Assembly (NCBI GenBank): GCA_039588295.1
Contig: JBDHAB010000004.1
Coordinates: 128,001 to 192,000, forward strand
DNA: 64,000 nt
Source: Gemmatimonadota bacterium
GTDB lineage: Bacteria; Gemmatimonadota; Gemmatimonadetes; Gemmatimonadales; GWC2-71-9
Reading direction: 5' to 3'
Under the pieces are notes generated by a model. That model ran no database searches, was not told where the DNA came from, and saw nothing but the letters and a program-made list of their open reading frames with translations. Positions 5,190 to 60,200 of the stretch are shown piece after piece; within the stretch, counting starts at the first letter, position 1, and the number at the start of each line of letters is the position of its first letter. The translations under genes were made by a program, and so were the position numbers.

Positions 5190-5286
5190 AGGAGGAGACG
5201 GGCGCCGAGTGGGTGTCTGCGGCGGCCGCTGCCAGAGGTGGGTGCCAGCTGGCTGGCGGGCTGGGTGGGTGTACGAAGGGCGGACC

Positions 5287-30980: not shown

Positions 30981-31089
30981 CGGTTTCTTTAGGATGGGCT
31001 CACGAACTTTTTGGCTGCTCGGGGATACATTCCCTGTAGCCAAATGCGAGAGTGTTTCCCGTCTTTCGGGCGGAGGGTATATTTCCAAC

Positions 31090-31494: not shown

Positions 31495-31498
31495 CGGC

Positions 31499-36652: not shown

Positions 36653-36770
36653 GTAACCGCTTGACAGGCAATAGGCTAGAAGAGGCTCAGTGCCCATTCA
36701 TGGCGCGTTGTTGTCGCCCCGCGGCCTTTGGGAAACGCCAGTCGCTTCATCGGAAAGAGGCAGCCTTGAG

Positions 36771-42569: not shown

Positions 42570-42743
42570 GGATTGCAGGCAAGTGCGTCCTGCCAGAGCC
42601 AGCCACAGTCCTGGATGTCCCCGGTCTCGTTATCCAGATCTCCTCACGTGCCCGGACGGGAGTCAACTGGGAGATCTATGCGGGTTGTTGCAGTGAGTGC
42701 GCTGTTCACGGCCAGATCCGTGTTACACGTTCCTTCAGTCACT

Positions 42744-43661: not shown

Positions 43662-44713
43662 AGCGCCTACTTGCGACGGCGTGGCGGTACTGGCGAGCAC
43701 GCTACCGACTGTCGTACCCACTCCAAGTTGGGTTTGCGGTGAACAACACGTGCAATACGTTCTGCCAAATGTGCAACGTTTGGCAGATGCGACCCAAGGA
43801 AGAGTTGGGTCTCGATCAGATCCGGGCGATCTTCTCCCGGCGTCTCTTTCAAAACTGCGTCACGGTCAGCTTGACGGGTGGTGAGCCAACAATGCGGCGT
43901 GATCTCGGTGAAATCCCCAAGATCCTCGCCGAGACGCTGCCGACTTTGAGGCAGGTTAATCTCACGAGCAACGGGTACACGCCGTCGGCGCTCAGCGCGC
44001 ACCTTGAGTCTTGTCTCCCGGTACTTCAATCTCATCGTGTCGGAATGTCGGTGAATATCTCCATCGATGGTGTCGGCGAAGTGCATGACAGGGTACGTGG
44101 ACGAGAGGGTGCCTTCGAGAATTTGAGTACCTCAGTGTCCGTCGTGCTAGGCTTGCAGCAGCGATATCGAGTCAACCTTGCTCTTGCGTGTACGATCACG
44201 CGGGGCAACCTGGCTGGGGTGAGGGACGTTCTTGAGTATGCGAAGCGACTCGGCGTGTACGTCATCTTCCGAAACGGCTTCACCATCCGCCGCATCGGGA
44301 GCGAATCAACGTTCGGTGAGTTTGGCGTTACGCCGGCTCAGATACCGGACGTCATAGACTTCTATGCCAATGCGGCGCTTCGGTATGATCCGACCTACCA
44401 GCGTCGCGAGTACTATCGCATGTTGCTTAGGATGCTCAAGGGGGGGGAACGAGACGTCCCGTGTCTGTATCGCAAGGCTGGGCTGTTCATCGATCATCGA
44501 GGAGAGATGTTCGTCTGTACCGTATTCAGCGATCGAATTGGGTCGGCGATCGGTGAACACGCGGAGAGCCAATTCCTGGATTCGGCCGAACATCGCAGCG
44601 AGTTGGCGTGCAGGGACTGCCGCAAGTGCTCGCATGATGTCACTCTCTATACCTCACTCGTCCAGCAAGGTATGGAGAAGCTTAGAGCGCACGTGACGGG
44701 TGTGAAGCGGTGA
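43658..44713 (+). CDS. Radical SAM protein with a C-terminal SPASM/twitch-like Cys cluster
   Basis: CNTFCQMC, LTGGEP, ISIDG...HDRVRG; C-terminal PC...VC...CRDCRKC. Confidence 0.9.
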   Translation: MKRLLATAWRYWRARYRLSYPLQVGFAVNNTCNTFCQMCNVWQMRPKEELGLDQIRAIFSRRLFQNCVTVSLTGGEPTMRRDLGEIPKILAETLPTLRQVNLTSNGYTPSALSAHLESCLPVLQSHRVGMSVNISIDGVGEVHDRVRGREGAFENLSTSVSVVLGLQQRYRVNLALACTITRGNLAGVRDVLEYAKRLGVYVIFRNGFTIRRIGSESTFGEFGVTPAQIPDVIDFYANAALRYDPTYQRREYYRMLLRMLKGGERDVPCLYRKAGLFIDHRGEMFVCTVFSDRIGSAIGEHAESQFLDSAEHRSELACRDCRKCSHDVTLYTSLVQQGMEKLRAHVTGVKR

Positions 44714-45957
44714 GGTTACTGAGGCTGCTTGTGGAGATACTAGGATGTGTTGTACTGCTTCCAGCGGCATGGATAAGGCGCGCGATGGGCCGCAAGTCGG
44801 GTCAGCGAATTGCCATCGTTGGCTGGTATGGATCTGAAACGGTCGGGGACGTCGCGATACTTGGGCAGGTGTTGAGCGAGTGGCGGCACGTCCTGCCACG
44901 GGTCACCATCACGATCGTCAGTTTCGCACCGAAGATCACGCAGCGCTCGCTCGATGATATCGATGAGCGGAAGGCACTTATTGCTGGAGAGGGTCTTGCC
45001 AGTTGCTGGGCTCTGGTCATGGCGGATTGGCTGGTATTCGGTGGCGGGCCTCTCATGCAGAGCCCAACGACGTTCCTGTGGCTGGCTCGGGTAATCGCGG
45101 TGAAGGTGGCGGGCGGTCAAGTTGTCGTGCACGGCTGTGGAGTAGGACCGATCCGGACTGCTGCAATGTGTCTGGCGGCATCAATGATCCTGCACCGGGC
45201 GGATCTGATAATGCTGCGTGACCGCACGATTGAGCAGTGGCTCCCGAGGTTTGCAGGTTCGTACCACGTCGTGTTTGACCCGGCATTCGACTATGTCAGA
45301 AGCATGTGTGAGTCGGAGCCCCGCGCGGATTCGGGACAACGATCACAGCGGGTGCTCGCCTTGTTTCTGCGATGGCCGTCAAAGCAGTACTTGGAGAGGG
45401 GAACCCTGCCTGAGGATCTCGTCGACACGATCGTTCAGGCCCTCATTTCGCTTACAGACCAGATGAATCTTCTCCTGCGCGCGTGCGTGATGCACGCGGA
45501 CTACCCGGAAAGCGATGACCGCCGCATTTATCAGCATCTTCGGCGCTCTCTACGTCGTGGTGTCACACTCGACCTGTCGTCGGAGCGACAAGCGCTGCGA
45601 GACATCGTGCATGCCGCCCGAAGTAGTGATGCCGTACTTGCAATTCGGTATCATGGATTGGTGATCGCGCTCGCCACGGGCACGCCGTTTCTGGCGGTTG
45701 ATTATACAGAACCGTGGGGCAAAACGAGGTCGACCGCCGAGCGCGTGGGCATGAGCGACCATGTCTTGTCGTGGACGCAGTCGACTGCCGCAACGATTGC
45801 GGATGAGTTGGCGAGCGTTTTGGCTCACGAGGCTCACCGGGAACAAGCGCGAGTGTTGGATGAGGATTTTGTGGGTCAACGCGTGGAGCTGCTGCAGATG
45901 CTTGTTGAGCGACGGAGAGACGGAGGTTACGAGGCGCGTGCCATGAGGTCTTCGTAG
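44710..45957 (+). CDS. Polysaccharide pyruvyl transferase family protein (CsaB-like)
   Basis: GWYGSETVGD, FGGGPL, GCGVGP, LRD, DPAF and RYHGLVIA motifs. Confidence 0.85.
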   Translation: MRLLRLLVEILGCVVLLPAAWIRRAMGRKSGQRIAIVGWYGSETVGDVAILGQVLSEWRHVLPRVTITIVSFAPKITQRSLDDIDERKALIAGEGLASCWALVMADWLVFGGGPLMQSPTTFLWLARVIAVKVAGGQVVVHGCGVGPIRTAAMCLAASMILHRADLIMLRDRTIEQWLPRFAGSYHVVFDPAFDYVRSMCESEPRADSGQRSQRVLALFLRWPSKQYLERGTLPEDLVDTIVQALISLTDQMNLLLRACVMHADYPESDDRRIYQHLRRSLRRGVTLDLSSERQALRDIVHAARSSDAVLAIRYHGLVIALATGTPFLAVDYTEPWGKTRSTAERVGMSDHVLSWTQSTAATIADELASVLAHEAHREQARVLDEDFVGQRVELLQMLVERRRDGGYEARAMRSS

Positions 45958-47078
45958 AGTCGCTCGTACTCAGTAATCTGGCGCTCTAGCGTGAATTGCC
46001 GTGCCACCGTGAGCCGTCCCTGTTCTCCCATGGCGTGTGCCAAGGCCGGCTCCCGCAGGATTGCGAGACATCGCCCGGCCATACCCGCAGGATCATCCAA
46101 TTCGGTGAGATACCCATTCACCCCATCTCTGATCACCTCAGGGTGACCGCTGACTCTGGTGGCCACGCACGGAAGACCGTTGGCGAAGGCCTCGAGTATC
46201 ACCATCGGAAGACCCTCACATGCAGACGGTATCAGCAGAACAGACGAAGACCTGTACAGGGGTGTTATGTTGCGGGACCGCAGCTTGCCCACCCAATGCA
46301 CAGCTCCCGCTTGCCCCAGCTCCTCGAAGAGTGCCACTACGTGCGGCACCTCGGACGGCTCCACTCCGACGATGTTGAGCGTAACGTCAGCGCGCTTCTG
46401 TCGGATACGTTGGAGCACAGAGGGCAAAACAGTGATGCGTTTTCGGTGAGTCGAGTTTCCTACATAGAGGATGGCCGTGGTGCTGCGCAGGGGGGAGGGT
46501 TCCAGAGGCGCGGTGTCGGTGATCGATGGTACTGCGTTGTAAATTATGGTCGCGCTACGGCCCTTCGTCTCACCAAGCACATCGCAAGCCGAACTGCGGG
46601 AGATGAATGACTCTGCGTCAGCCATCTTCAGCATGGCCCAATCCGACACCCGATGTAGCGTTGTGGTTAAGAACCGGTATCGAAGGTTCGCTAGGCTACG
46701 CCCATAGAGGCGTCCATCGATCCGGTAGGGCCGATGCGCCTCCGCAAAGGCACGAAAGCTCACGTGAAACGTCGCGAGAATCGGAGTTCTGATTCCCATA
46801 CTCCACATCCCGAGTGTAAACAGCAGCGCCTCACCATTGTGGCAGTGTACAACGTCAAATGCCCGCGCGCGTGATGCCAGCAGGGCAGTGCGGATGATCC
46901 ATCCAGCCGCCGTCTTCGAGACGCGCTCAACCGTCGGATCATCTACGCTGGTCCCTGCCGCTATTACGCATGACTCATGTCCTCGCTCTAGTAGTCCACT
47001 GTGTAGATGCGCGACCACCTCGCCTACGCCGCCTATCCGATCTGGAGGTAGGTAGGGCACAACATGGAGGATTCGCAT
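45927..47078 (-). CDS. GT4 glycosyltransferase
   Basis: MRILHV, GGVG, EGLPMVILEAFANG and EVIRDGVNGYL motifs. Confidence 0.9.
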   Translation of the reverse strand: MRILHVVPYLPPDRIGGVGEVVAHLHSGLLERGHESCVIAAGTSVDDPTVERVSKTAAGWIIRTALLASRARAFDVVHCHNGEALLFTLGMWSMGIRTPILATFHVSFRAFAEAHRPYRIDGRLYGRSLANLRYRFLTTTLHRVSDWAMLKMADAESFISRSSACDVLGETKGRSATIIYNAVPSITDTAPLEPSPLRSTTAILYVGNSTHRKRITVLPSVLQRIRQKRADVTLNIVGVEPSEVPHVVALFEELGQAGAVHWVGKLRSRNITPLYRSSSVLLIPSACEGLPMVILEAFANGLPCVATRVSGHPEVIRDGVNGYLTELDDPAGMAGRCLAILREPALAHAMGEQGRLTVARQFTLERQITEYERLYEDLMARAS

Positions 47079-47087
47079 TGCCCGAAC

Positions 47088-47816
47088 CTAACTCGGCATT
47101 ATTGAGGGCTTGCTGGCCACCAGCACGTGGTCGCATGGGTAAAGCGTCGCCATGCCGACCAACCGATCCAGGAGGCCGAGGAGACGCACGAGAATCAGAT
47201 AGTTAGCCAGCCACACCGGCCAGCGCAGCAGCGGCAGGCTCCCGAGCGTGCTCATGATGAGCGCACTCGCGCCATGGCCGAGGAAGCACAAGAGCCCGCC
47301 CGTCGGCGTGATCTCAAGCACCTCCAGGTCGGCCCGCCGGCACAGCGCTTCAAGCCCGTAGCGGGTGTACCGGTAGTAGTCATGCGGTGCCTCGTGGACC
47401 ACCGAGAGGTGCGGCACACTCAGGATGGTGACGCCGCCCGGTTTCAACACCCGCGCAATTTCGCCCATCGCGTCCCACGGCCTCGGCACGTGCTCGACTA
47501 CCTGGCTGCACAGGACGGTGTCGATCGACTCGTCGCCGATCTCCGACATGCGCTGAAGGTCCGCGATGACGTCGACGTCGCCCGAGCGATTCTCCACGTC
47601 GACCGAGAGGACTTCCAACCCCACGGTGGTCAGGAGTCGCTTGTACGGGGATCGGCCAGAGCCCGCATCCAGGCAGCGACCGTGCGCGTGTGCCGAAATC
47701 TGCCGGCGCACCGCGGCGTTAAGCCGCGCGCGGGCGAGGGAGAGGGTGTGCAGGAGCCCCCGAGAGGCGAGGGCCTCCTCGATGCGCTGCCTGCCGCGCT
47801 GCAGGAAGCGGGTCAC
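47088..47816 (-). CDS. Class I SAM-dependent methyltransferase
   Basis: CLDAGSG, LCSQVVEH, RVLKPGG and HEAPHDYYRYT motifs. GTG 47816 chosen as start to avoid overlapping the cytochrome gene. Confidence 0.85.
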   Translation of the reverse strand: MTRFLQRGRQRIEEALASRGLLHTLSLARARLNAAVRRQISAHAHGRCLDAGSGRSPYKRLLTTVGLEVLSVDVENRSGDVDVIADLQRMSEIGDESIDTVLCSQVVEHVPRPWDAMGEIARVLKPGGVTILSVPHLSVVHEAPHDYYRYTRYGLEALCRRADLEVLEITPTGGLLCFLGHGASALIMSTLGSLPLLRWPVWLANYLILVRLLGLLDRLVGMATLYPCDHVLVASKPSIMPS

Positions 47817-47862
47817 GGTGGACGGAGACTGCTGCGCAGGGGTGCGTGCGGATGCCGGGTCC

Positions 47863-48638
47863 TCATCTCGCCGCGGGCTGCAGCGAGCCACCGCCGTGCG
47901 ATGCATGACACTCCGTGCACTTCCCCCCAGGGCCATGTGCCGGGGCCGCTGCCGCCGCGGCAGCCCGTGACAGACGGCGGCGACCTGCGCTCGCGCCGAC
48001 CGTCGACAGCCCGCTGGCCGAGTGGCACGACTGGCACTGCAGGTCGGGCGTGCTCTCGCGCAAGAGCCGCGTGCCCGGCTGACCGTGGTGCAGGTCGTGA
48101 CAGTCCGAGCACGCGAGGGAAACGTGCTCGTGGGTCGCATACTCCGACGAGCTGTGGCACCCGGCGCAGATCATGCGCTGTTCGCTCGCGTCGGGGATCG
48201 GCGACAGCCGGTCGTGCGGGTCGTGACAGTCGGTACACTCGATCACCGCGGACTGCGACGCCAGTTGCAGCGGCGAGCGCAGGTACCGGCGCGACGCCCG
48301 CCGCCGCCCGGTGGGCTGCGGTATGCTCACCTCCACATCGCCGAGCGGGTGAACCCCTACGCCGGTCGGCCCGAGGTACCGCGCGCCGTCGGATTGGCGG
48401 ACGGCCGTGAGTGCGGGGAGGCCGGGTTGCTGCTGACGGAGGCTCTCGTTGAGGTGAGGGAGCCTTCGCCGAGTCGCAGCGTCGCCCTGGTCGGCCGTCC
48501 CACGTGGGCGGCGTGGCAGTAGTCGCACGAACTGAGTTCTCCCACACCCTCGGTCTCCGCCACCTGAGGATGCTGACCCTGGGCGGAGGTGGGAACGAGG
48601 GCCACCACCGGCAGCCACGCGAGCCTGGCTATCCGCAA
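47863..48638 (-). pseudogene. Secreted multiheme cytochrome c split by a frameshift (at least 6 hemes)
   Basis: Signal peptide and CDYCH are in one frame (48638-48357). HPLG...IECTDCHDPH, CAGCH, CSDCH, CQSCH and CTECH are in another frame ending at 47863. Could be a sequence error. Confidence 0.72.
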
Positions 48639-48639
48639 G

Positions 48640-50544
48640 CTAGAACCGCCTCCGGACCCAGATTGTGACCCGGTTATCCGCCCGGCCGACTACGTCGTTC
48701 CAGGTACGCGCCTGGAAATCCGCGGCGACGGTGACGAGTGCCACGGTCAGCGTGGCACCGATGCCGCCACCGATGTTCCGGCGGGTGTCGTCGGTAGCCA
48801 GCCGGGTGACGCTCCACGCCCCGAGGTGGGCGCGTGTGCGGAGCCAGCGCAGCCCCTCCCAGTTGGCACCACCCGAAATGTTGAGGGTGCGGGCCAGATT
48901 GCCGGGATCGCCCGACCAGCTCATGCCCCCACCCAGCCCGACCCGGACCTGCTGAGGCAGGCGGACGTTGATGCCACCGCTCACCGACGTGGCGCTGAAG
49001 GCGTAGTCGCCACTGGTTCTGCGGATCCGCGTCACGGCCACTCTCCCGGACCCCAGCGGAACGGAACCCGCGATGCGCAACCCGAACTCCAGCTCGCTGA
49101 GGTCCCGGAGGAAGAGGCCGCCCGTGCTGCCGGATGGGAGTTCCGACAGCGGCTCCGCCCGGCGCAGCCGCACGAACGTTTCCGCGGGGCCAACCGACGC
49201 CCGGGCGTTGGCCGAGAGGGTGAGATGATCGAGTGGCCCACTCGCAGGTGAGGCGTACGCGTAGTCGACCTGGACGGTATCGCCGGGGGCGATCCGGCTC
49301 GCCGGAGCGAGGGTCACCAGCGTAAACGCACCGCTTGGAAGCAACTCGTAATCCAGTCCCGCTTCGTAGAGGATGGCCCGGTCCCCGCTGAAGATGCGAA
49401 CCGAGGCAGCCTCCACCCTGGGATTCTCGAGCAGGAAGCTCCCGTCCGCGCCGACGACGCGCTCTTCCCCCACCACGTCGGCCAGCCCCTCGTCCGTGGC
49501 CTCCGCCTGTCCGCGGAGGTATTGGACCGATCCGCCGCCGCCCAGTCGGACGGAGCCGAACAGACGGTAGCCGAAGCCCACCGACTGCCCAACCGACAGC
49601 TCCCGTTGCCGCTCGATCCGGCCCCGCACCCACCGCGAGGAGACGTTGCTGCGACCCACGAGCCCGGGACCGACAGGGTACGACATGCCGTATCCCGCAC
49701 TCCAAACCGATCGCCCTGCTGCGTCGGATCGGGTGTTGCGATATTGGAACGAAAGGCTCGACTGCACTCTTTGGGCATGCCGGATGCGGCCGATCTCGGA
49801 CCACTGCAGGCTCCGCCGACCTAGGCCGTCCACGAAGCTCAACCTGGAGCTCCAGGAGCTGCCCCGGCCCCAGCCGTGTCGATGTCCCAGGCTGGCCACC
49901 CACTGCGCGTCCTTGCGGTTGCTCGCCTGTGTCCACCAGAAGCGCTGCACGAGCAATTGCGTCTTGCGATTGCGCGCCTCCAGCGCGAGTGAGCGGTTCG
50001 TGAAGGTCAGGGGCGAACCGGTGGTAAACCCCTCCGTCTCCGCCTTGTGGCGGTACAACAGCTTCGTCGGCAGACCGGGCAACTGCGCGTCGAAACGGGC
50101 TCCATAGTATGAAACCCATCGCTCCGTTTCAAAGCCGGTCCGATCCTGCCGGACGGTGGTGCTCCGACCGCCATTCAGCGTCAGCCAGTATGGCCGGCTG
50201 TTCTGGAGAACGTTCGCATGCGCCGACCATCCGAAGTCGCGCAGGGAGGAGGACTCGGTGCTCGTGCCCCCGATCTGCGTCCACTGCGGTTGCAGGGTGA
50301 CGCCGAACCGGAACGCGCCGGGATGGAGGATGACGCCGTCCACTTCGAGCGACGCGAACTCCGTCGTCTGGAGGTTGTAGGCTCCGGCGGGGAAGGTCTG
50401 GTCGCTTTTCCAGTTTCGGAGCAGTCGTGCACCGATGCTCCCCCTCACGTCCGTGAGGGAGAACCACGTCTGAGCGGAAACGGGTTCCGCCGTGCTCCCC
50501 AGAGTTCCCAGGAGGAAGAACCATGCGAGCAGGCCGTGTCTCAT
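48640..50544 (-). CDS. Putative outer-membrane beta-barrel protein with an inserted soluble domain
   Basis: Signal peptide VSA|Q; amphipathic beta strands; C-terminal ...WVRRRF (terminal Phe); no Cys. Confidence 0.7.
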   Translation of the reverse strand: MRHGLLAWFFLLGTLGSTAEPVSAQTWFSLTDVRGSIGARLLRNWKSDQTFPAGAYNLQTTEFASLEVDGVILHPGAFRFGVTLQPQWTQIGGTSTESSSLRDFGWSAHANVLQNSRPYWLTLNGGRSTTVRQDRTGFETERWVSYYGARFDAQLPGLPTKLLYRHKAETEGFTTGSPLTFTNRSLALEARNRKTQLLVQRFWWTQASNRKDAQWVASLGHRHGWGRGSSWSSRLSFVDGLGRRSLQWSEIGRIRHAQRVQSSLSFQYRNTRSDAAGRSVWSAGYGMSYPVGPGLVGRSNVSSRWVRGRIERQRELSVGQSVGFGYRLFGSVRLGGGGSVQYLRGQAEATDEGLADVVGEERVVGADGSFLLENPRVEAASVRIFSGDRAILYEAGLDYELLPSGAFTLVTLAPASRIAPGDTVQVDYAYASPASGPLDHLTLSANARASVGPAETFVRLRRAEPLSELPSGSTGGLFLRDLSELEFGLRIAGSVPLGSGRVAVTRIRRTSGDYAFSATSVSGGINVRLPQQVRVGLGGGMSWSGDPGNLARTLNISGGANWEGLRWLRTRAHLGAWSVTRLATDDTRRNIGGGIGATLTVALVTVAADFQARTWNDVVGRADNRVTIWVRRRF

Positions 50545-51431
50545 TGAGCGTTCGCCGGTGCCTCGGTGGGGGCGGTGTGGCACCTGGTGCAATCCACGAG
50601 GTCGAAGGCGACCTCGCCATCATGACAGGCACCGCAGGCGGCGCCGTCTCGCATGGCCGCCATGGTGAGCGTGTCCGAGCCGGCGCGCATGGCAAAGAGG
50701 GATGGGTGACATGCGGTACACCGGTACCGGATGCGGTGGCGCCAATGGGGGAAGCGGGCATGGGGGAACGCCGCCTCCACGTTCTCGTCGACGCCGTGGC
50801 GCGCAAGCACGACGTCTTTGCCCAGCGGGTTGGTGATGGGCTCGAACGCAGGCATGCCCTCGTGGCACCGCACGCAGGTCGACGTTGCGAATGACACCGG
50901 GCCGTGGCACTGCCCGCACGCCTCCCCGTTGTTGATCAACGCCATGGTGACGGGCTCACCCCGGTAGCGCACGATGGCCGGATGGCAGCCATCGCACCCA
51001 ACCCACTGGACGTGGGAGGAATGGGGGAACCGTGCATCGAACATCGGATCCGGGCCTTTGTAGAGGAAATCGAATCCGAACGCGTGCTGATCGGCGCCAT
51101 CCGGCTCACCGGCGACCGACCAGCGCGGGTCGATCACGCCGCGACGGAGGGCCTCCATCCAATCAACCCCGTCCGCCACGTCGCGCGGCAGCAGGGCGAG
51201 AACGCTGTCCCGCGCCGTCACCCGTTCGATGGCGGGCCGGTCGGCAACCGTGTCACTTGGGATGCTGCGGGAGACAATGCCCGGCGCTGTCTGGGAGGTC
51301 TCGGGCTCCTGGGGCAGGTCGAGCAGAACGGCCGCCGCCGTCGAGCAGCCCGCCAGGAGTGCTGCCGCCACCACGGTGCATGCAGCCCGTCCTCCAAATC
51401 GAGACCCGGATGTGGATGCAACTCGTGTCAT
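50541..51431 (-). CDS. Hexaheme lipoprotein cytochrome with two c7 (PpcA-like) triheme domains
   Basis: Lipobox LLAGC; two repeats of FPHxxH...CxxCH...M...G..CGxCH...F...CxRCH. Confidence 0.88.
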   Translation of the reverse strand: MTRVASTSGSRFGGRAACTVVAAALLAGCSTAAAVLLDLPQEPETSQTAPGIVSRSIPSDTVADRPAIERVTARDSVLALLPRDVADGVDWMEALRRGVIDPRWSVAGEPDGADQHAFGFDFLYKGPDPMFDARFPHSSHVQWVGCDGCHPAIVRYRGEPVTMALINNGEACGQCHGPVSFATSTCVRCHEGMPAFEPITNPLGKDVVLARHGVDENVEAAFPHARFPHWRHRIRYRCTACHPSLFAMRAGSDTLTMAAMRDGAACGACHDGEVAFDLVDCTRCHTAPTEAPANAQ

Positions 51432-51522: not shown

Positions 51523-51539
51523 TGGCAAGATCATTGCCT
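51523..51539. promoter_or_regulatory. Dyad giving a sigma54-like GG-N10-GC motif on both strands
   Basis: Plus strand TGGCAAGATCATTGC and minus strand AGGCAATGATCTTGC, in the divergent intergenic region. Confidence 0.4.
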
Positions 51540-51809
51540 CTTCCGTATAAAGCAATCGTGAACAGCGACTTAAGGCCCGGCGGAGGCCCCGATGAATGTG
51601 TTCTGGCACCGTGGCGTAGGTGCCACGGACGTTGCAGAATTGGGACGGAACCTATGTTAATACAGGCTTCATTAAATCTTTACGGCTGAGGGCGTACAGT
51701 CCCACAGCCTCTAGGCAGAAAGAGTACGTAGGCGTTGGCAAAGGCCCGTATTGGGGCCCCAAGAGCGGCCTTTGCGAAGTGGTTAGGTCCATGGACTGGA
51801 GGAGGAGGT

Positions 51810-52463
51810 ATGAAGAGAACGCTTGTTTCAACGATGGTGGCGCTCGCAATGCCTGTTTTCGCGGCGTCGGCTTCGCCCCTGTGGAATGCGACCCTGTCGA
51901 CGACGCCGTGGACGAGCTTGGCGGCCAGCCCGCACGACTTCACGGCGTCCAATCCGGATCCGACCTACGCCGCGATTGCCGCGACGAACAAGTGTGAGTC
52001 GTGTCACCACCCTCACGAAGCGATTGGCGCCGCCTACGGTCCGCTGTGGAACCACAGCCTCAATTCAGGCGCCAACGCGTATACGATGTACGGTACCACC
52101 ATCGCTGGCAACGACCCCACCAACAATGCGGTCGGCAACGCATCGCTCCGGTGCTTGGGCTGCCATGACGGCACGCTTCCGATCGATGCCTACGGCGGCA
52201 GCGCGGGCACCCCGACGCTCACGGTCGGCCTGGAGAAGTTCAGCAACCTGGCCGACGTGACAACCGATCTGACGGACGATCACCCGGTGGGGTACAACAT
52301 TCCTCTTGGTACGGCGGGCTGGCAGGCCAATCTCACCGGTGCTTCTGCCACGGCCTACAGCGGCGACGTGGAGTGTGCCAGCTGCCACGATCCGCACGGC
52401 ACGACGTACGGCGTGAAGTTTCTGCGGGCTGCGGACTTCTGCACGGACTGCCACGACAAGTAG
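51810..52463 (+). CDS. OmcE-like tetraheme cytochrome (candidate cytochrome nanowire subunit)
   Basis: GGAGGAGGAGG RBS; signal peptide; ordered motifs PHDF, CESCHHPH, PLWNH, YTMY, SLRCLGCHDG, DLTDDHPV, VECASCHDPH, FLR, CTDCHDK-stop, matching the OmcE pattern as I recall it. Confidence 0.85.
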   Translation: MKRTLVSTMVALAMPVFAASASPLWNATLSTTPWTSLAASPHDFTASNPDPTYAAIAATNKCESCHHPHEAIGAAYGPLWNHSLNSGANAYTMYGTTIAGNDPTNNAVGNASLRCLGCHDGTLPIDAYGGSAGTPTLTVGLEKFSNLADVTTDLTDDHPVGYNIPLGTAGWQANLTGASATAYSGDVECASCHDPHGTTYGVKFLRAADFCTDCHDK

Positions 52464-52521
52464 GCAGGTCTGCCCTGGCACCGAAGCCGGGGAATGAGTA
52501 CAATCGAGATGCGACGATGGG

Positions 52522-52546
52522 GGTGGCCGAGGTTGGCCACCTTCTT
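52522..52546 (+). terminator. Hairpin between the OmcE-like gene and the NHL gene
   Basis: GGTGGCC-GAGGTT-GGCCACC followed by TTCTT. Confidence 0.55.
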
Positions 52547-52581
52547 CGTATGGAGAATTGGCGAAGGCAGGGGATCGTCAG

Positions 52582-53661
52582 ATGCTCGGGAGAAGCTATA
52601 GCATGATTCGGTTCGGTGGTCCGGTTCTGGCGATGGTGGTGGCTACGGCGTGTGCCAGCGGCGGCACCATGGAATACATCTTCTATCCGCCCCCGCCAGA
52701 CACGGCCCGCTTCCAATTCCTCAGGGGCATCTCCTCGCTCGATGACGTCAAAGGCTCCGGGCGGTCCTTATTCGCGGCCATTGTGGGTGAAGAGAGGAAG
52801 GCGAGCCCGATCCGCATCATCCGGCCGTACGGGGTCTCTGTCGACAGTGGCCTGATTTACGTCTGCGACGTCAATCTGCCCGGCGTCTCGATCATCGATC
52901 TGGCCGAGAAGTCGATGCGGCAGGTCATGAGCCCGACCCTGCCGCGACCCAGTGCCTGTGTGGTGGATCGGGCGACCGGTCAGCTCTACATCGCCGATTC
53001 CGAGCGACAGGAGATAGTGATCATAGGGACGGACGGCATCTACGCCGGCGTCGTGGGAGACAGCCTGCGCGGGCCCGGCGGTGTCTACGTGACCGATGAC
53101 CGGGTGTGGGTTACCGATATCGGAACGAAGCAGGTTCGCGTGTACGACAAGGCAACGCGCCAGCATCTGCGCGCATTCCCGGATCGGGGCCTCGAAAGAG
53201 ACGATCCGGCTCGGCTCCAGTGGCCCATGAGCCTGTCTGTGCATGGAGACCGCGTGTACGTCACCGACCAGTTCGCTGCGCACGTGAACGTCTATTCGAC
53301 GGACGGGGCGTACGTCAGAACGATCGGGCGACGCGGGGTGAGTTTCGGGGCCTTCGACCTGCCCAAGGGTGTCGTCGTGGATCCCGCAGGCCGGGTCTAT
53401 GTGGCGGACTTTCAGTTTCACCACGTCCAGGTGTTCGACGAGGAAGGGAGCGTGCTCACCTACTTCGGGGGTGGGGGTCGGGGGCGACCCGGATACCTGG
53501 GCGGGCCCATCGGCCTTGCCATCGACGACGTCAACCTTGAGTACTTTCGGGAGTACGTGCACCCGGACTTCGACCTGAAGTTTCTTATTTACGTGACGAA
53601 TCAGGTCGGTGCCCAGAAGCTCTCGGTCTACGGGTTCGTCGAGCCGAAAGCGGGACGCTAG
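52582..53661 (+). CDS. NHL-repeat beta-propeller lipoprotein
   Basis: Lipobox ATAC; FYPPPPDTARFQFL; blades PYGVSV, PGGVYV, PMSLSV, PKGVVVD, PIGLAID. Alternative ATG at 52603. Confidence 0.88.
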   Translation: MLGRSYSMIRFGGPVLAMVVATACASGGTMEYIFYPPPPDTARFQFLRGISSLDDVKGSGRSLFAAIVGEERKASPIRIIRPYGVSVDSGLIYVCDVNLPGVSIIDLAEKSMRQVMSPTLPRPSACVVDRATGQLYIADSERQEIVIIGTDGIYAGVVGDSLRGPGGVYVTDDRVWVTDIGTKQVRVYDKATRQHLRAFPDRGLERDDPARLQWPMSLSVHGDRVYVTDQFAAHVNVYSTDGAYVRTIGRRGVSFGAFDLPKGVVVDPAGRVYVADFQFHHVQVFDEEGSVLTYFGGGGRGRPGYLGGPIGLAIDDVNLEYFREYVHPDFDLKFLIYVTNQVGAQKLSVYGFVEPKAGR

Positions 53662-53904: not shown

Positions 53905-55437
53905 TCATTGATTCGGCCGGTTCGCACTCATGGCTTCGAGGGCTGCCGCGGCCGTTCTATTCTGCCGATCGAGGCGGAGGACACGACGGTACCATCCTTC
54001 GGCCTCCCCCGTGTTCCCGCGGCCGGCAGCGCGACTTGCGAGCCGCAGGTACTGCATCACGTACACCTGGGTGTTCAGCACGCCCGCGCGTCTGTGCTCG
54101 TCGGCCTTTGCGGGTTGTCCGAGGCGCTCGTACTCCCGAATCAGCGCCACGCGCAGGGCGTTGGACCGTGGGCTCACCCGCACGGCCGTCTCGAATACCG
54201 TGACGTTATCGCGCCACACCGCGTTCCGGCGCGCCGTGAGCACCGACAAGGTGGTGAGCAGGACGACCGTCACGACCAGCGAGATGGGGACGCTTCGGAG
54301 TGCGCGACCGTGGACGCCTGCGGAGGCAACTGCCCGGACTGCCGCATACGCAAGGCCCAGCATCGGGACGTAGAGAAACCGTTCGCCGATCATTGCTCCC
54401 CTGAGTGGAACGATGTTCATGACGGGGAGGAGGGTAATAAAGAACCAGGCAATTCCAAATGCCACATGCGTGTTCCGGCGCATGTTGTATGCGGCGATGA
54501 ACACCACAATCGCGATGACGCCAAGCGCACCGAGAGCGCCGGGGTCGAGATAGGATTCCGGAATGCCGACCTCATGGCGAACGGATTGGCGCACGGGAAT
54601 CAGGAGAAGTCGGAGGTACTTTGCCACGACTGCCGCCTGCATCAGCATCGTTCTCGTGAAGGTGACACCCATCCACTCACCGCTCGCCAGCCCGCCGAGG
54701 AGGTGACTGCGCCACCAGACGAACGCCGCCGCAATGGCGACGAACCCGAGGAGATACGCAGAGTATCCTCGGTGCAGTGTGAATCCGTTCCTTCGGCGCC
54801 GGAGCAGCAAGTCGGACAGCACCACGAGCAGTGGCAGCGTGATGGCCATCTCCTTGGCCAGCAGTGCGAGGCCGAAGCACACATACACGGCCGCCACGGC
54901 ACCTGGGTGCCATGAGCCGCGCCTTCGTAGCCCTAAGTGCAGGTAGAGGGACAGCAAGACCAGGGACGCGGAGAGAAGGTCTGCGAATCCGGTCACATTG
55001 GCTACTGCCTCTGTCATGATCGGATGGGACGCAAAGACCGCTGCCACGATCATCCCCGCCCCGCGCGTGCCGGACAACAGGGTGAACACGGCGTAGGTCA
55101 GGAGGACGTTCACCACATGCACGAGACCATTGAGCGCGTGATACGCCAAAGGACTCAGTCCGAAGGCGTGATGTACGATCGCAAACACCAGCGTCCGGAG
55201 CGGCCGATAGTATGCCATGCCCTCGGCAGCCACACCCGTGCGGTAGTCGGTGAAGAACTGCGGCAGGTTCCCGAGATCGCGGACGGCAGGATTGTCGACG
55301 AGAACGGGAAAGTCGTCCCAGACGAAGCCGTTCAGCAGCGTATTCGCGTAGATCAGGACGGTTCCGAGCACGAGCGCGACGGGGACTACCGGAGGGTCCT
55401 TCCGCGTCGCCGGGCCGCTGTTACCTGCCATCGTCAT
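53905..55437 (-). CDS. TMTC-like GT-C membrane protein with a short TPR tail, paralog C
   Basis: NGFVWDD, YYRPL, HPIMTEAV, AKEMA, ERFLY and RNAVW motifs. Confidence 0.82.
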   Translation of the reverse strand: MTMAGNSGPATRKDPPVVPVALVLGTVLIYANTLLNGFVWDDFPVLVDNPAVRDLGNLPQFFTDYRTGVAAEGMAYYRPLRTLVFAIVHHAFGLSPLAYHALNGLVHVVNVLLTYAVFTLLSGTRGAGMIVAAVFASHPIMTEAVANVTGFADLLSASLVLLSLYLHLGLRRRGSWHPGAVAAVYVCFGLALLAKEMAITLPLLVVLSDLLLRRRRNGFTLHRGYSAYLLGFVAIAAAFVWWRSHLLGGLASGEWMGVTFTRTMLMQAAVVAKYLRLLLIPVRQSVRHEVGIPESYLDPGALGALGVIAIVVFIAAYNMRRNTHVAFGIAWFFITLLPVMNIVPLRGAMIGERFLYVPMLGLAYAAVRAVASAGVHGRALRSVPISLVVTVVLLTTLSVLTARRNAVWRDNVTVFETAVRVSPRSNALRVALIREYERLGQPAKADEHRRAGVLNTQVYVMQYLRLASRAAGRGNTGEAEGWYRRVLRLDRQNRTAAAALEAMSANRPNQ

Positions 55438-55524
55438 CGGTGTTCACTGCCCACGGCTGGTCCGTGCCTGTGTGCTCCGTGAACGACCGGTGTTGTCACT
55501 TGCAGCGCCTCGAGAACCGGCATA

Positions 55525-57345
55525 CTACTGCGAGAGCTTGGCGCGGAGGAGCGCGATCTGCGCAGCGAACCGCTGCGGAGCAGTCTCCATGAACCGGCGG
55601 TAGAGAACCCGAGCCTCCTCTTCACGTCCCGCCTGTTCGTACGCTCTGCCGAGATTGTAGAGCGCCTCCGGAAACAGCGGGTCGATCTCGAGCGCCCGCT
55701 GCCACAAGACAGTCGCCTCAGTGCGGTTCCCTCGTCGGTCTAGAAGATTGGCCAGGTTATTGAGGGCGGTCGGGTGGCGCGGACTCAATTCCACGGCACG
55801 TCGATAATGGTATTCCGCTCGATCGAAGTCCCCCAGGCGTGCGTACGCGACGCCGAGGCTCAGGTGCGCCCCCTGGGACGATGGGGCCAACTCCACCGCC
55901 CGGGACAGATGACGCCGGGCCTCTTTGGGGGCGCCGAGTGCGAGAGCGACGTCGCCCAGGTTCAGCCACGCGCGACTGTATTCCGGGAAGACCGTGGCGG
56001 CATACCGAGCATGTCGGCGGGCTCCCTCATAATCCCCGACATCGAAGTACGCCGTGGAGAGCGAGGCTTGCACGAACGCGCTCCCCGGCTGCACGGTCGC
56101 AGCGCTGGTGAACAAGGCCATCGCATCGTGCCAGTCGCTCGTTCGCAACCAGGTTCGCCCCGCATAGAGAACGATGACAGCCGCGACTGCCACACGTCCC
56201 AACGCCCTTCCGCGCGCTCCGGACAGCCGGACCAGGGCATCCAATCCCACGATTGCCGCGATCGCGAGGCCCGCCGTAGGGAAGTACAGGAACCGCTCGG
56301 CAAACAATGATGCGACCGGCCGCACCGCGTTCACACCAAGGAGCGCGACGTGTGACAGCACCATACTCAATCCAACGAACGCCACGCGCGAGCGCCGGGC
56401 CAGCCACGAGAGCGTCCACAAGGAGACGAGCAGGACGGCGCTCCCGAGAATGACGCGCGCGTCAAGGAAACTCCGAGCGATTGGGATGGCCTCGTAGGAG
56501 TAGTCTGCCGAGAGCGGTACCGGGTAGATCCACAGCTGGGCAGCCTGCGCCAGAAGCGCCATTGCAGTGATGAACCGAGGACCGAGGGGCTCCGCAATCA
56601 GGGGGTTGAACACGTACTCGATGGGTGACTGGCGCAGCCCCCCGAATCCGGCCGCAAGCCCGGCCACATAGACAACAGCAGTCAGCAGATACACACCGAA
56701 TCGGCCCCACTGCGGCTTCGGCTTCCTGGTGGCCTCGAACAGCAGCAGCACACCAAGCAGCGCAACGGCGCCTTCCTTACAGAGCAATGCGAGCCCGAAC
56801 AGGATGACACCGGTCACGTGTGCCCATGATGCTCGAATCGCCCCGCTGCCGGGCGAGCGGACGTAGAGCACGAGAGCGGCAAGAGAAAACAGCGCTGCCA
56901 GGAGCTCGCTTCGCGCCGCGCCCCAGGCCACGGCTTCGCTGGTCACCGGATGGACTGCGAAGACGGCGGCACCACAGGCGGCAAGTGTCGCCCGGCCTGT
57001 GAGTGCGGTGACGAGCAGCATTACCAGGACGGCGTTTGCCCAATGGAGCAGGATGTTGCCTAGGTGATACCCGAACGGGCTGAGGCCGCCCAGCGCGTAG
57101 TTGACGGCGTAGGACAGCGTAATGAGCGGTCGATAGTGCGTTCGGGAGGATGCCGACGTGGACTCCCAGAACCCGGATGTGAACATCTCAGGGAGGTTGG
57201 CCAGGTTCCGGATGACCGGGTTCTGCTGGATAAACGGGATGTCGTCGACCACAAAGCCGTTGGAGAGTGCGTTCACGTATGCGACGAAGATCAAGGCCCC
57301 CAGCAGGAGCGCGAATGCTGCAAGCCGTCTTGTCTCCCCCGACAT
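55525..57345 (-). CDS. TMTC-like GT-C membrane protein with TPRs, paralog D
   Basis: NGFVVDD, HYRPL, HPVTSEAV, CKEGA, LSADYS, ERFLY, then several TPRs. The start is uncertain. Confidence 0.82.
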   Translation of the reverse strand: MSGETRRLAAFALLLGALIFVAYVNALSNGFVVDDIPFIQQNPVIRNLANLPEMFTSGFWESTSASSRTHYRPLITLSYAVNYALGGLSPFGYHLGNILLHWANAVLVMLLVTALTGRATLAACGAAVFAVHPVTSEAVAWGAARSELLAALFSLAALVLYVRSPGSGAIRASWAHVTGVILFGLALLCKEGAVALLGVLLLFEATRKPKPQWGRFGVYLLTAVVYVAGLAAGFGGLRQSPIEYVFNPLIAEPLGPRFITAMALLAQAAQLWIYPVPLSADYSYEAIPIARSFLDARVILGSAVLLVSLWTLSWLARRSRVAFVGLSMVLSHVALLGVNAVRPVASLFAERFLYFPTAGLAIAAIVGLDALVRLSGARGRALGRVAVAAVIVLYAGRTWLRTSDWHDAMALFTSAATVQPGSAFVQASLSTAYFDVGDYEGARRHARYAATVFPEYSRAWLNLGDVALALGAPKEARRHLSRAVELAPSSQGAHLSLGVAYARLGDFDRAEYHYRRAVELSPRHPTALNNLANLLDRRGNRTEATVLWQRALEIDPLFPEALYNLGRAYEQAGREEEARVLYRRFMETAPQRFAAQIALLRAKLSQ

Positions 57346-57540
57346 CGGGCCCGAAGGGATCTTCGTAGGACATTCCTTGAGTCTTTCCATGCTCCGGACT
57401 CCCGTCAGATCACCCGAGCGGCTTGTCGACAAAGAACGTCTCGGTCACACCGATCCCGCCAACCACCGCGGCGCGCGCGAGAAGATACGACAGGTAGAGG
57501 TATCCGAGTCGCCGGTTTCCGAGCAGGGGATCTTCACAAT

Positions 57541-57799
57541 CCTCACGAAGTTCAACACCAATTCCTGGGTCACCACGGGCCTTACGGACGATCACCCGGT
57601 CGGGTACGATCTGCCGAACGACGTTAATGAGTACAGCCAAACGCCCTCGACGGCTAAGTTGTACGGTGGCGCCATAGAGTGCGCAAGCTGTCACGACCCA
57701 CACGGCACTACCTACGGCGTGAAGTTCCTGCGGGCTCAGGATTTCTGCTCGGACTGCCACAACAAGCAGGTCAAGTTGTGCGCCCGCGCGGCGGGTTGA
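57541..57799 (+). pseudogene. 5'-truncated second copy of the OmcE-like gene
   Basis: Encodes VTTGLTDDHPVGY...IECASCHDPHGTTYGVKFLRAQDFCSDCHNK, very similar to 52258-52460. No signal peptide or first two hemes, and the stop position reads CAG instead of TAG. Confidence 0.85.
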
Positions 57800-57809
57800 G
57801 ATCGCGGAG

Positions 57810-57846
57810 CCGGGGGTGGCCAAAGATTGCCACCCCCGGTTTTATT
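57810..57846 (+). terminator. Rho-independent terminator, related to the 52522 hairpin
   Basis: CCGGGGGTGGC-CAAAGATT-GCCACCCCCGG followed by TTTTATT. Confidence 0.8.
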
Positions 57847-57875
57847 GTGGTCGAGACCTCGTACGGAGTTGTGGA

Positions 57876-58499
57876 GTGTCGATTCGAATTCGCCTTCACT
57901 TGTTGGCTCTGACCTGCTCGGTGTGTGCTCTTGGAGCGTGTGCGAGCAGTGGTTCGATTGAGTATGTCTTCTTCCCGCCTCCGCCGGACACGGTGCGGCT
58001 TCAGTATTTGGGTAAGATCAGTCCACTTGACGATCGCAAGGAGGTGGGGCGTTCCGTATTTGCCATGCTTGGGGGTGGGGAGGAGGAACAGAGCCCAATC
58101 CGCCTCCTTCGCCAGTACGGCGTGACGACCGATACCGGAACCATCCACGCCTGCGACGTGAACCTGCCTGGCGTCCAGGCGATCGATCTGGGGGAGCGAG
58201 ATATCCGCCAGATCAAGAGCCCCACCATGATGCAGCCGAGCATTCGCACCGTGGATCCCGTCACCGACGAGCTCTACGTGGTAGAGGACAATCGGGACGA
58301 GATCGTCGTGCTTGGGGTGGATGGTATGTTCAAGAGTGTCGTGCCGATGGACGTGTGGATCGACTACGCCAATCTGGATCTTTATCGGGATTGGGTGCAC
58401 CCGGATTTCACGCTGAAGCACCCAGTGCTGGTTGCGAACCAACTCAGCCCTGATAAGTTGGCCATTTGCGGGTTCGTGGAACCAAGACAGGGCCGGTAA
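57876..58499 (+). pseudogene. Internally deleted copy of the NHL lipoprotein at 52582
   Basis: Same N-terminus (GACASSGSIEYVFFPPPPDT) and C-terminus (VHPDF...GFVEP) but about 150 aa are missing in frame. Confidence 0.75.
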
Positions 58500-60200
58500 T
58501 TGGCGTTACAGGCGCTACGGAAGTCGCTCCTGACATCGGAGCTAGGGCCACTCGCTCTTCTCATTGCGGTCAACCCGGTGGTCTACTCGATCAACCGGAG
58601 CGCGGCGTACTTTCCGCCGGATTCCATCCTCTACGCCGTTATGGCCAGGGACTTCCTAGACGGTCTCCCGCTGCATGTATCGGGTTGGGGTGGGGCCGGC
58701 GGTGGAGTCATCTTGCCACCACTCTACCCAGCCGTGGTCGCACTAATGTCGATCGCGAGCCCGAATCGGTTGGCAGTGGCGGAGTATGTGAGCGCCATCA
58801 GCATCATCCTGGCTGCCATTCCCCTGTATCTCACGGCTCGCTCATACGCCGGGAGAATTCCCAGCCTCATCGGAGTCGGTGCCCTCCAGTGCATGGGGTT
58901 CTACTTCCACACGGCTCTTCAACCGCTCACAGAGGGCCTGTTCATACTGGTCTCAGCGATTGCTGCCTACGTGTTGGTCAGGACGGCGAGGAGAGGGACG
59001 AAGTTGAGGTGGGTCCTGATATCCGGTGTCTGCGCCGCGCTCGTCTACTTCACCCGCCAGATAGGCCTGCTGTTTCTCCCATGCGCGGTTCTGTTCTTCC
59101 TCCTTCCGGGAACAGAGTCCTTTCGAAGTCGAGTGAAGCGACGAGTCACAGCGGCAGTGGTGGTGGTGGGTGGTTTTCTGGTTCTTGCTGGACCGTATGC
59201 GCTGACGCTTTACTTGCAGACTGGTCAACTCCCCCTCAAGCAGCGTTTCAGTACTCGATCGCAGGCGGTGCAACCGAGCGCTGAAGACCTCCGCACAATT
59301 GAGCGTATCCGCGCGGAGACAAGCGCCGGCTACGAAGGCACGTACGGTGAGCGCCGAAGGCTCCGAAAGCTGAACGAGGCCCGATCGGCTATGCTCTCTT
59401 CGGTTGTTGCAGGTGACGGCAACCAAAGGAGCCTCGTTTCGTCGGTTTTCAAGACGCTCATGTCCCCGCGAAGTGTGATTCAACGGATCGGCTCCAACCT
59501 GCGGCATGTGGTGACCGCCGCCGGTCCGGGGCTTTCCCTCCTGTTTTGCATGGCCATGCTCTTTCCACTCACGCGTACGACGGATGAGCGCCGACGGTGG
59601 GTCTGGAGTGTGCCGTGGTTGTGGGTGGTTGGATATGTCTTTGGGCTTTCTCTGGTATCGACCACAGTTGACCGCTACGTCCTTGTAATCATCCCATTCC
59701 TGTTCCTGCAGTCGGTGCTTTTCCTCACAACTGTCGGGGGTTGGCTGCCTGCGGTGCGTACCCGTCATGGGCGGCTGCCCATTGACGGAGGGCTCGCCAC
59801 GATCGTGTTCGTGATCGGGTTAGCGTCGGCGCCGTCTTTGTTTGCAGACGTTTCCCGCTATCCGAAGCTGTTGGAGTCGGAGTTGCCAATGGGTGCGCTG
59901 CGTAACGTTGTTGGCAGGGGTGACCCCATGTTCACCCTCTACCCGGCAGATGCCTACTTCTTGGGTGGAATCTTCCGCGTCCAGCCGGACGCACGCACGG
60001 GAGACTTGGCTGCGTTTGCTCGTCGCACGGGTGTCAAGTGGCTGGTCGTTCGCCGCACCCCGCAGATCATGCAGGAGTTGCAGTACTACTCCGAATCCTC
60101 GTGGTACCTCGATCCAGGCGTGGTCAGTGACACCAACTTGGTCTTCATGGGCTCGAGCGAGGATGACGTGTTACACCTTTATCGCGTTCGCGATCAGTAG
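58500..60200 (+). CDS. ArnT/PMT-like (GT-C) membrane glycosyltransferase
   Basis: PDSILY, PPLYP, LTEGLF, FTRQIG and DRYVL motifs; multi-TM. Confidence 0.78.
   Translation: MALQALRKSLLTSELGPLALLIAVNPVVYSINRSAAYFPPDSILYAVMARDFLDGLPLHVSGWGGAGGGVILPPLYPAVVALMSIASPNRLAVAEYVSAISIILAAIPLYLTARSYAGRIPSLIGVGALQCMGFYFHTALQPLTEGLFILVSAIAAYVLVRTARRGTKLRWVLISGVCAALVYFTRQIGLLFLPCAVLFFLLPGTESFRSRVKRRVTAAVVVVGGFLVLAGPYALTLYLQTGQLPLKQRFSTRSQAVQPSAEDLRTIERIRAETSAGYEGTYGERRRLRKLNEARSAMLSSVVAGDGNQRSLVSSVFKTLMSPRSVIQRIGSNLRHVVTAAGPGLSLLFCMAMLFPLTRTTDERRRWVWSVPWLWVVGYVFGLSLVSTTVDRYVLVIIPFLFLQSVLFLTTVGGWLPAVRTRHGRLPIDGGLATIVFVIGLASAPSLFADVSRYPKLLESELPMGALRNVVGRGDPMFTLYPADAYFLGGIFRVQPDARTGDLAAFARRTGVKWLVVRRTPQIMQELQYYSESSWYLDPGVVSDTNLVFMGSSEDDVLHLYRVRDQ

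What the first reader, a model, noticed from the sequence alone, without database searches (positions are those of the whole stretch)
51810..52463. OmcE-type cytochrome nanowire subunit in an apparently non-Geobacter genome
Seen: a 217-aa secreted tetraheme with motifs in the order HDF, CxxCHxPH, PLWN, SLxCLxCHDG, DLTDDHPV, ECxSCHDPH, FLR, CxxCHxK-stop. It has a very strong RBS (GGAGGAGGAGG) and a hairpin separating it from the downstream gene, a layout typical of an abundant structural subunit. It is Thr/Ser-rich and has four N-x-S/T sequons (NAT, NHS, NAS, NLT). Known: Geobacter OmcE polymerises into a heme filament reported to be glycosylated; I matched its motif order from memory. Inference: this organism makes cytochrome filaments.
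Basis: partly seen in the sequence, partly recalled or inferred. Interest (0 to 1): 0.9.

Follow-up and report, generated by a model that had tools for sequence, protein, structure and literature searches.

The report
OmcE nanowire cytochrome gene in Gemmatimonadota
This gene encodes a four-heme protein of the same family as the building block of Geobacter's electrically conductive protein filaments and sits in the matching export gene cluster, so this uncultured Gemmatimonadota lineage probably has the parts to wire itself to its surroundings, although no filament has been shown and one companion gene is broken.

Summary
The ORF (51810-52463, +, 217 aa) is real and belongs to the OmcE family. 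Its only clear PDB relatives are the two solved OmcE filaments (7TFS, 9YUQ; profile E 7e-46 and 2e-43, next 5e-12). Its model matches 7TFS alone (Z 10.8), and all four CxxCH motifs and four distal histidines are kept. The host is a Gemmatimonadota MAG. The gene lies in an omcE-type cluster: a large beta-barrel, two NHL propellers, multiheme cytochromes and GT39/TMTC-like glycosylation genes. OmcE matches occur in 23 of 401 genomes of the phylum, and 19 of 20 regions checked carry the cluster. The RBS and hairpin are confirmed. The four N-sequons are at chance level and no oligosaccharyltransferase was found, so O-linked glycosylation is likelier. A seven-heme companion, itself an OmcE-like module plus three hemes, has a frameshifting 76-bp deletion here, and a decayed second omcE-NHL copy lies downstream. 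Filament formation is inferred, not shown. OmcE homologues across several phyla are published, and this scan noted them before on other DNA. I found no report for Gemmatimonadota, but two key papers were unreadable. Verdict: new member of a known kind.

The parts
51810..52463 (+). omcE-type tetraheme cytochrome c, 217 aa with signal peptide; candidate filament subunit
51798..51808 (+). Shine-Dalgarno repeat GGAGGAGGAGG
52514..52549 (+). GC-rich stem-loop between omcE and the NHL gene; probable partial terminator or processing site
   Evidence: z -3.4/-4.3; the 100 nt after omcE reach z <= -2 in 10 of 19 relatives
52558..53661 (+). NHL beta-propeller, probable lipoprotein (true start probably a later ATG)
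   Evidence: a homologue is near omcE in 20 of 20 regions
50541..51431 (-). six-heme c7-type cytochrome with lipobox-like LLAGC, divergent from omcE
   Evidence: PF14522 E 6e-26; TIGR04257 E 1e-34
48640..50544 (-). large outer-membrane beta-barrel (about 28 long strands plus an inserted beta domain); candidate secretion pore or anchor
   Evidence: AF2 pLDDT 91.7, all-beta; Foldseek hits are large OM barrels (LptD, MtrB, SlpA) at TM about 0.4
47863..48638 (-). seven-heme cytochrome (OmcE-like four-heme module plus three hemes), broken by a 76-bp frameshifting deletion near 48457 that removes most of the second heme motif
34907..36507 (+). second NHL propeller and small multiheme cytochrome; beside the core in relatives, here separated from it by glycosylation genes
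36690..47834 (.). glycosylation genes: glycosyltransferase-like ORFs, two TMTC-like membrane proteins with TPRs, LPG-synthase-like protein, radical SAM, pyruvyltransferase, GT4, methyltransferase
53905..57432 (-). two TMTC-like (GT-C, O-mannosyltransferase-type) genes
   Evidence: PF08409 over cut-off in one; 31% identity between the two, E 6e-35
57539..58499 (+). decayed duplicate: 3' third of a second omcE (62% identity to residues 140-217, stop codon lost), a copy of the hairpin (about 57806-57843) and an internally deleted NHL gene
58500..60200 (+). PMT_2 (GT39-like) membrane glycosyltransferase
   Evidence: PF13231 E 1.7e-11
30760..34145 (+). cytochrome c maturation genes ccmE, ccmF, ccmH flanking the cluster

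Best explanation
The gene encodes the subunit of an OmcE-type cytochrome filament. Shown here: family membership, all eight heme-ligand histidines, the OmcE fold and the cluster. Inferred from OmcE of G. sulfurreducens and D. soudanensis: the protein is exported to the periplasm and receives four hemes from the neighbouring Ccm system. It then leaves through the large beta-barrel with help from the NHL lipoproteins and stacks head to tail, one heme per subunit taking its distal His from the next subunit, which gives an insulated heme chain. The RBS and hairpin would give much more subunit than accessory protein. The c7 six-heme lipoprotein and the seven-heme OmcE-module protein would link the filament base to periplasmic and inner-membrane cytochromes; CbcL-like multiheme/cytochrome b and NrfD modules lie in the same window. 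Surface Ser/Thr are probably O-glycosylated by the GT39/TMTC-like enzymes. Export to Fe/Mn oxides, humics or partner cells under anoxia is the likelier direction for a heterotroph that also has two heme-copper oxidases, but uptake is not excluded.
For: The sole phmmer PDB hit under E 0.8 is 7TFS, E 1.4e-11. The family profile hits 7TFS at 7e-46 and 9YUQ at 2e-43, next 5e-12. The model matches 7TFS only: Foldseek E 7.5e-5, TM 0.55; Z 10.8, rmsd 3.1 A over 165 residues, next Z 3.2. H42/H69/H158/H196 align to OmcE H31/H58/H149/H208 and are His in 93-94 of 94 rows. It is the only intact stand-alone copy in the genome. Its cluster matches the published minimal omcE cluster and the glycosylation-gene variant (PMC13712944). 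Barrel, NHL and c7 homologues lie beside omcE in 19 of 20 regions from the phylum. Both solved family members are filaments.
Against: No filament, expression or proteome data. Identity to OmcE is only 27-29%, and the protein sits on a long branch. It has about 13 more residues before the first His than OmcE and the shortest heme3-heme4 linker of 94 rows (17, against 20 in OmcE); both regions are low-confidence in the model. [quoted passage not shown] The seven-heme companion is frameshifted with no second copy, and a decayed duplicate shows recent turnover of the locus.
Confidence: 0.62

Rival explanations
1. The protein is a surface or terminal cytochrome of a porin-cytochrome conduit (c7 lipoprotein, barrel, OmcE-like outlet), acting as a monomer or short oligomer rather than a micrometre filament.
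For: The barrel resembles MtrB-class barrels at a general level (TM 0.43). OmcE modules also occur fused to further hemes in 7- and 11-heme proteins, so the module is not only a polymer unit. Non-polymerising paralogues are known for OmcS.
Against: The strong RBS and hairpin suggest an excess of subunit over barrel. The ligand set is the filament's, and both solved members are filaments.
Confidence: 0.2
2. The cluster works in relatives but is decaying in this strain, so no functional wire is made.
For: A 76-bp frameshifting deletion in the seven-heme gene, with no intact copy elsewhere; a pseudogenised second omcE-NHL pair; 3 of 9 genus members have no match (these are 78-90% complete).
Against: omcE, NHL, c7 and barrel frames are intact. 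A seven-heme or other fused OmcE-module gene was not seen in 6 of 20 fetched regions, so it may be dispensable, though some regions are cut short. The deletion could be an assembly error or a subpopulation allele.
Confidence: 0.13
3. It is a soluble periplasmic tetraheme shuttle (c3, STC or c554-like role).
For: Signal peptide without lipobox; weak Pfam c3/c7 matches limited to the C-terminal CxxCH pair.
Against: No c3, STC or c554 structure is matched by sequence or fold; linkage to an outer-membrane barrel is conserved.
Confidence: 0.05

Closest known systems
OmcE of Geobacter sulfurreducens
   Same: Four CxxCH plus four distal His in register; HD, PLWN, DLxxDHPV, ECxSCH, FLR and terminal CxxCHxK; same fold; cluster with barrel, propellers, cytochromes and glycosylation genes next to heme-maturation genes.
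   Different: 27-29% identity; longer N-terminus, shorter heme3-heme4 linker; phylum Gemmatimonadota; omcE is divergent from the c7-barrel operon; a companion carries an OmcE-like module plus three hemes (broken here).
OmcE of Desulfuromonas soudanensis WTL (PDB 9YUQ, DSOUD_2954; PMC13712944)
   Same: Matched by the family profile at E 2e-43 over the full length; minimal cluster composition.
   Different: D. soudanensis lacks the glycosylation genes and glycan density, and forms antiparallel bundles through loops that are not conserved; no bundling can be inferred here.
OmcS hexaheme nanowire (PDB 6EF8)
   Same: Works by the same inter-subunit His ligation and heme packing (PMC9473688).
   Different: Six hemes, 407 aa; only a weak match here (profile E 1.4e-9 with no stretch passing alone; Z 3.2).
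Porin-cytochrome conduits (MtrAB type, PDB 6R2Q)
   Same: Large beta-barrel next to multiheme cytochromes.
   Different: The tetraheme is not MtrA- or MtrC-like (Z 3.0); the barrel matches MtrB only at TM 0.43, no better than LptD.

Membership tests
OmcE tetraheme nanowire cytochromes | Four CxxCH motifs and four further conserved His (PMC13712944) | tested here: met
OmcE tetraheme nanowire cytochromes | Full-length sequence homology to solved OmcE | tested here: met
   phmmer E 1.4e-11; profile E 7e-46 and 2e-43
OmcE tetraheme nanowire cytochromes | OmcE fold (mostly coil) | tested here: met
   AF2 pLDDT 66.6 without hemes; Foldseek and VIA single out 7TFS
OmcE tetraheme nanowire cytochromes | Large outer-membrane beta-barrel gene nearby | tested here: met
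   48640-50544
OmcE tetraheme nanowire cytochromes | Two beta-propeller lipoproteins and two multiheme cytochromes in the cluster | tested here: met
   NHL at 52558 and 34907; six-heme c7 and a small multiheme gene intact, seven-heme gene broken; lipidation read by eye only
OmcE tetraheme nanowire cytochromes | One heme takes its distal His from the neighbouring subunit | tested here: inconclusive
   All four distal His are present, so the ligand is kept whichever it is; no call gave the residue in OmcE or model coordinates
OmcE tetraheme nanowire cytochromes | Polymerises into extracellular conductive filaments | not testable with these tools
   needs cryo-EM, proteomics, conductance
OmcE tetraheme nanowire cytochromes | Surface glycosylation (G. 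sulfurreducens; absent in D. soudanensis, so not defining) | tested here: inconclusive
   GT39/TMTC-like genes adjacent; sequons at chance, no STT3 match
OmcS hexaheme nanowires | Six hemes, about 400 aa | tested here: not met
   four hemes, 217 aa
Soluble periplasmic tetrahemes (cytochrome c3, STC, c554) | Full-length match to these folds | tested here: inconclusive
   not listed; PF14537 matches only residues 181-216

The most novel reading that the evidence does not exclude
Several genera of Gemmatimonadota, heterotrophs with oxygen reductases and no cultured electroactive member that I found reported, build O-glycosylated OmcE nanowires. Their clusters also encode an in-operon protein made of an OmcE-like module plus extra hemes (seven hemes here, eleven in many other phyla) that serves as the filament's base adaptor or tip. 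PMC13712944 looked for such a protein and did not find one in the Desulfuromonadia operons.
Probability: 0.3. Interest if true: 0.68.

Novelty: new member of a known kind. Interest (0 to 1): 0.42.

Why it matters
If the filament is made, a widespread uncultured phylum not counted among metal reducers would have long-range extracellular electron transfer in about 6% of sampled species, including most of this genus. That would bear on Fe/Mn and carbon cycling in sediments. The conserved OmcE-module-plus-hemes companion is a concrete candidate for how OmcE filaments start or are anchored, an open question, and it can be tested genetically or structurally. The family itself is known to be widespread, so the finding extends a known system and does not found a new one.

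Tried and rejected
Complex prediction of two copies with four hemes: no answer, score 0.00 against a mark of 0.42; by the tool's own statement this is no evidence either way. Sequencing runs: no RNA holder listed. Contigs of two marine-sediment runs from one study lie on the stretch in short, near-identical pieces; none of the listed pieces bridges the deletion at 48457, and 54 more pieces were not shown, so the deletion is unconfirmed and the habitat is only a hint. The protein homologue search timed out. Rfam: no family in the window. No sigma-70 promoter upstream and no intrinsic terminator by consensus. N-glycosylation rejected as unsupported. A sigma-54-like site at 51523 is not conserved upstream in 15 relatives. 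No NiFe hydrogenase match. No Pfam or NCBIfam model names OmcE; only Paired_CXXCH passes a cut-off convincingly. The careful tree did not finish; the quick tree is weakly resolved at depth, so no donor or origin is claimed. Wang 2022 (OmcE structure), Baquero 2023 (homologue survey) and the supplement of PMC13712944 could not be read; they may list Gemmatimonadota or the interface His.

Full report
Observation. The frame 51810-52463 (+) encodes 217 aa with the motifs in the order given. GGAGGAGGAGG lies at 51798-51808. A stem-loop at 52514-52549 folds better than all 200 shuffles (z -3.4 and -4.3); it lacks a U-run and is not called as an intrinsic terminator. The 100 nt after omcE reach z <= -2 in 10 of 19 relatives. 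The four sequons are present but at chance level (P 0.18), none has the bacterial D/E-x-N-x-S/T form, and only NH[S/T] inside the PLWNH core recurs (16 of 93). Thr+Ser is ordinary for the family.

Family. phmmer against the PDB returns two sequences at E <= 1: 7TFS at 1.4e-11 and NrfH at 0.82. 7TFS is the G. sulfurreducens OmcE filament. In that alignment H42, H69, H158 and H196 face OmcE H31, H58, H149 and H208. I aligned the mature protein with 93 four-heme homologues; they were picked as C-terminal four-heme matches (95 such rows; the window's own copy and one duplicate were left out, as were seven five-heme rows). All eight ligand His are kept in 93-94 of 94 rows. The profile finds 7TFS (E 7e-46) and 9YUQ (2e-43) over their full length, and then nothing better than 5e-12. 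The AlphaFold2 model (pLDDT 66.6, no hemes) matches 7TFS alone: Foldseek E 7.5e-5, TM 0.55; VIA Z 10.8, rmsd 3.1 A over 165 residues, with OmcS and MtrA at Z about 3. Differences from OmcE: 27-29% identity, about 13 more residues before the first His, and a heme3-heme4 linker of 17 residues, the shortest of 94.

Host. The five best titled loci are Gemmatimonadota MAGs (69% and 38-43% identity). Flanking housekeeping genes match them at roughly 70-89% in translated comparison, and stretches from genomes of the window's own family match loci titled Gemmatimonadota. [quoted passage not shown] The window also holds multiheme/cytochrome b pairs that I read as CbcL-like (name recalled), an FeS-NrfD pair, and ccmEFH; more cytochrome genes lie just upstream.

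Cluster. PMC13712944 (parts 1-4 of 10 of the text, the Discussion and search passages read) defines the minimal omcE cluster as two multiheme cytochromes, two beta-propeller lipoproteins, OmcE and a large beta-barrel, often followed by 15-70 glycosylation genes (GT2, GT4, GT39, TPR proteins) and placed next to heme-maturation genes. The window has all of these. An NHL propeller follows omcE, and a second lies at 34907. A c7-type six-heme gene and a 630-aa protein are divergent from omcE; the latter models as an all-beta barrel of about 28 strands (pLDDT 91.7) with general likeness to LptD, MtrB and SlpA. Four TMTC-like genes, a PMT_2 gene, GT4 and sugar-modifying genes flank the core. No STT3 match was found, so if the subunit is glycosylated, O-linkage by these GT-C enzymes is the likelier route (inference).

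Distribution. With the profile, 23 of 401 genomes of the phylum match at E <= 1e-25 (13 of 146 genera), and 6 of 9 in the genus; both counts include this genome. I fetched regions from 20 of the 22 other matching genomes: barrel, NHL and c7 homologues lie beside omcE in 19 of 20, and the twentieth contig ends just after omcE. Outside the phylum the family is broad. One search confirmed 217 of 557 candidate stretches and kept 79 loci, from Acidobacteriota, Planctomycetota, Bacteroidota, Nitrospirota, Verrucomicrobiota, Pseudomonadota and others. A barrel homologue was found in 45 of 79 and NHL in 67 of 79 (26 and 36 of the 37 loci of 15 kb or more). In a quick tree of 116 rows the protein and its nearest relative form a long branch inside an eight-row Gemmatimonadota clade (support 99), while other members of the same genus carry different OmcE lineages. 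Exchange of the locus among kin is likely, but no donor is claimed.

Damage. The gene after the barrel is a seven-heme cytochrome in relatives (284 aa in L001). Here it has a 76-bp deletion near 48457 that shifts the frame and removes most of the second heme motif; no second copy was found in the assembly. It was intact where seen in the fetched regions (12 of 20 regions, one of two copies in one region with six hemes). Downstream, 57539-58499 holds the 3' third of a second omcE with its stop lost, a copy of the hairpin and an internally deleted NHL gene; the two TMTC-like genes between the copies are not at this place in L001.

A lead. The seven-heme companion begins with an OmcE-like four-heme module (hhalign probability 99.2%, E 1.3e-19 over 154 columns), followed by three more hemes. 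A gene of this build (mostly 7 or 11 hemes) occurs in 14 of 20 Gemmatimonadota regions and 48 of 79 titled loci (the loci were found with an OmcE query, so the second count is biased upward). PMC13712944 asks what anchors or tips the filament and found no candidate in the operons it studied. This protein is a candidate; the role is inference only.

Mechanism. Shown: family, ligands, fold, cluster. Inferred from the solved filaments (PMC9473688, PMC12954529 and PMC12307469, passages read): export, heme attachment by Ccm, passage through the barrel, and head-to-tail stacking with one inter-subunit His ligand, fed by the c7 and seven-heme cytochromes from inner-membrane quinol oxidases. I put this at 0.62. 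A non-polymerising conduit outlet (0.20), a decaying locus in this strain (0.13) and a periplasmic shuttle (0.05) are the rivals. PMC12977616 (passages) warns that homology does not identify which paralogues polymerise. The direction of electron flow is open, since homologues occur in lineages I recall as sulfur oxidisers (Thiobacillus, Hydrogenophilales).

Novelty. PMC13712944 lists clusters in five phyla and its main text does not mention Gemmatimonadota; a review says OmcE homologues occur across bacteria and archaea, citing Baquero 2023 among others. Searches for Gemmatimonadota with OmcE (1 paper, which says nanowires were not investigated), with 'cytochrome nanowire' (0), with multiheme and extracellular electron transfer (4 papers, passages of 3 read) and with 'electroactive' (the same 1 paper) found no such report; passages of PMC10954620 do not mention the phylum either. 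Wang 2022, Baquero 2023 and the supplement of PMC13712944 were not available and may hold one. Earlier notes of this scan describe OmcE homologues in at least nine other findings, none holding all my search words including Gemmatimonadota. Verdict: a sound new member of a known kind in an apparently unreported phylum; interest 0.42.

Noticed in passing
window 47863-48638 (-): Seven-heme companion with an OmcE-like module; 76-bp frameshifting deletion near 48457, unconfirmed by reads. Two contigs of one run end within 10 bp of the site on either side.
   Followed up: partly
window 57539-58499 (+): Decayed duplicate of the omcE 3' end, hairpin and NHL gene on the far side of two TMTC-like genes; it looks like the scar of a glycosylation-gene insertion or locus swap.
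   Followed up: partly
L125, L126, L127, L124 and the window: Genomes of one genus carry three different OmcE lineages and different gene orders, in those with enough flank at the site between ccm genes and an ABC permease; this suggests a swappable surface locus.
   Followed up: partly
window 51523-51537 (+): Sigma-54-like -24/-12 site 287 nt upstream of omcE (background 0.003 per 420 nt for the strict pattern); not conserved in 15 relatives.
   Followed up: partly
window 51605-51626: Inverted repeat TGGCAC-N10-GTGCCA in the divergent promoter region; possible regulator site.
   Followed up: no
window 14022-16354 (+): 474-aa probable outer-membrane barrel (no Pfam match) followed by a 12-heme cytochrome: a separate porin-cytochrome-like pair.
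   Followed up: no
window 8815-13885: Divergent 19-heme plus cytochrome b fusion and 11-heme plus cytochrome b pair, CbcL-like inner-membrane quinol oxidases.
   Followed up: partly
window 676-8288 (+): FeS-NrfD pair flanked by glycine-cleavage-H-like proteins and a two-component system with a sigma-54-type regulator.
   Followed up: no
L144 6412-19345: Further cytochrome island just upstream of the window, next to gyrB and recF: 8-, 9- and 21-heme proteins, NrfD-like and cytochrome b genes.
   Followed up: no
window 35860-36507 (+): Small multiheme cytochrome with non-canonical Cx3CH and Cx4CH motifs, at the place where most relatives have a 13-14-heme protein.
   Followed up: partly
L010, L014, L017: Flavobacteriaceae and Vicingaceae (Bacteroidota, including named isolates) carry OmcE homologues with barrel and 11-heme genes; culturable hosts for a test.
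   Followed up: no
L130, L133, L136, L137, L140: Five-heme OmcE-like genes in Gemmatimonadota clusters, mostly beside a four-heme copy.
   Followed up: no
window 51876-51887 (residues 23-26): The mature N-terminus repeats the PLWN motif found at 78-81; also seen in L001.
   Followed up: no
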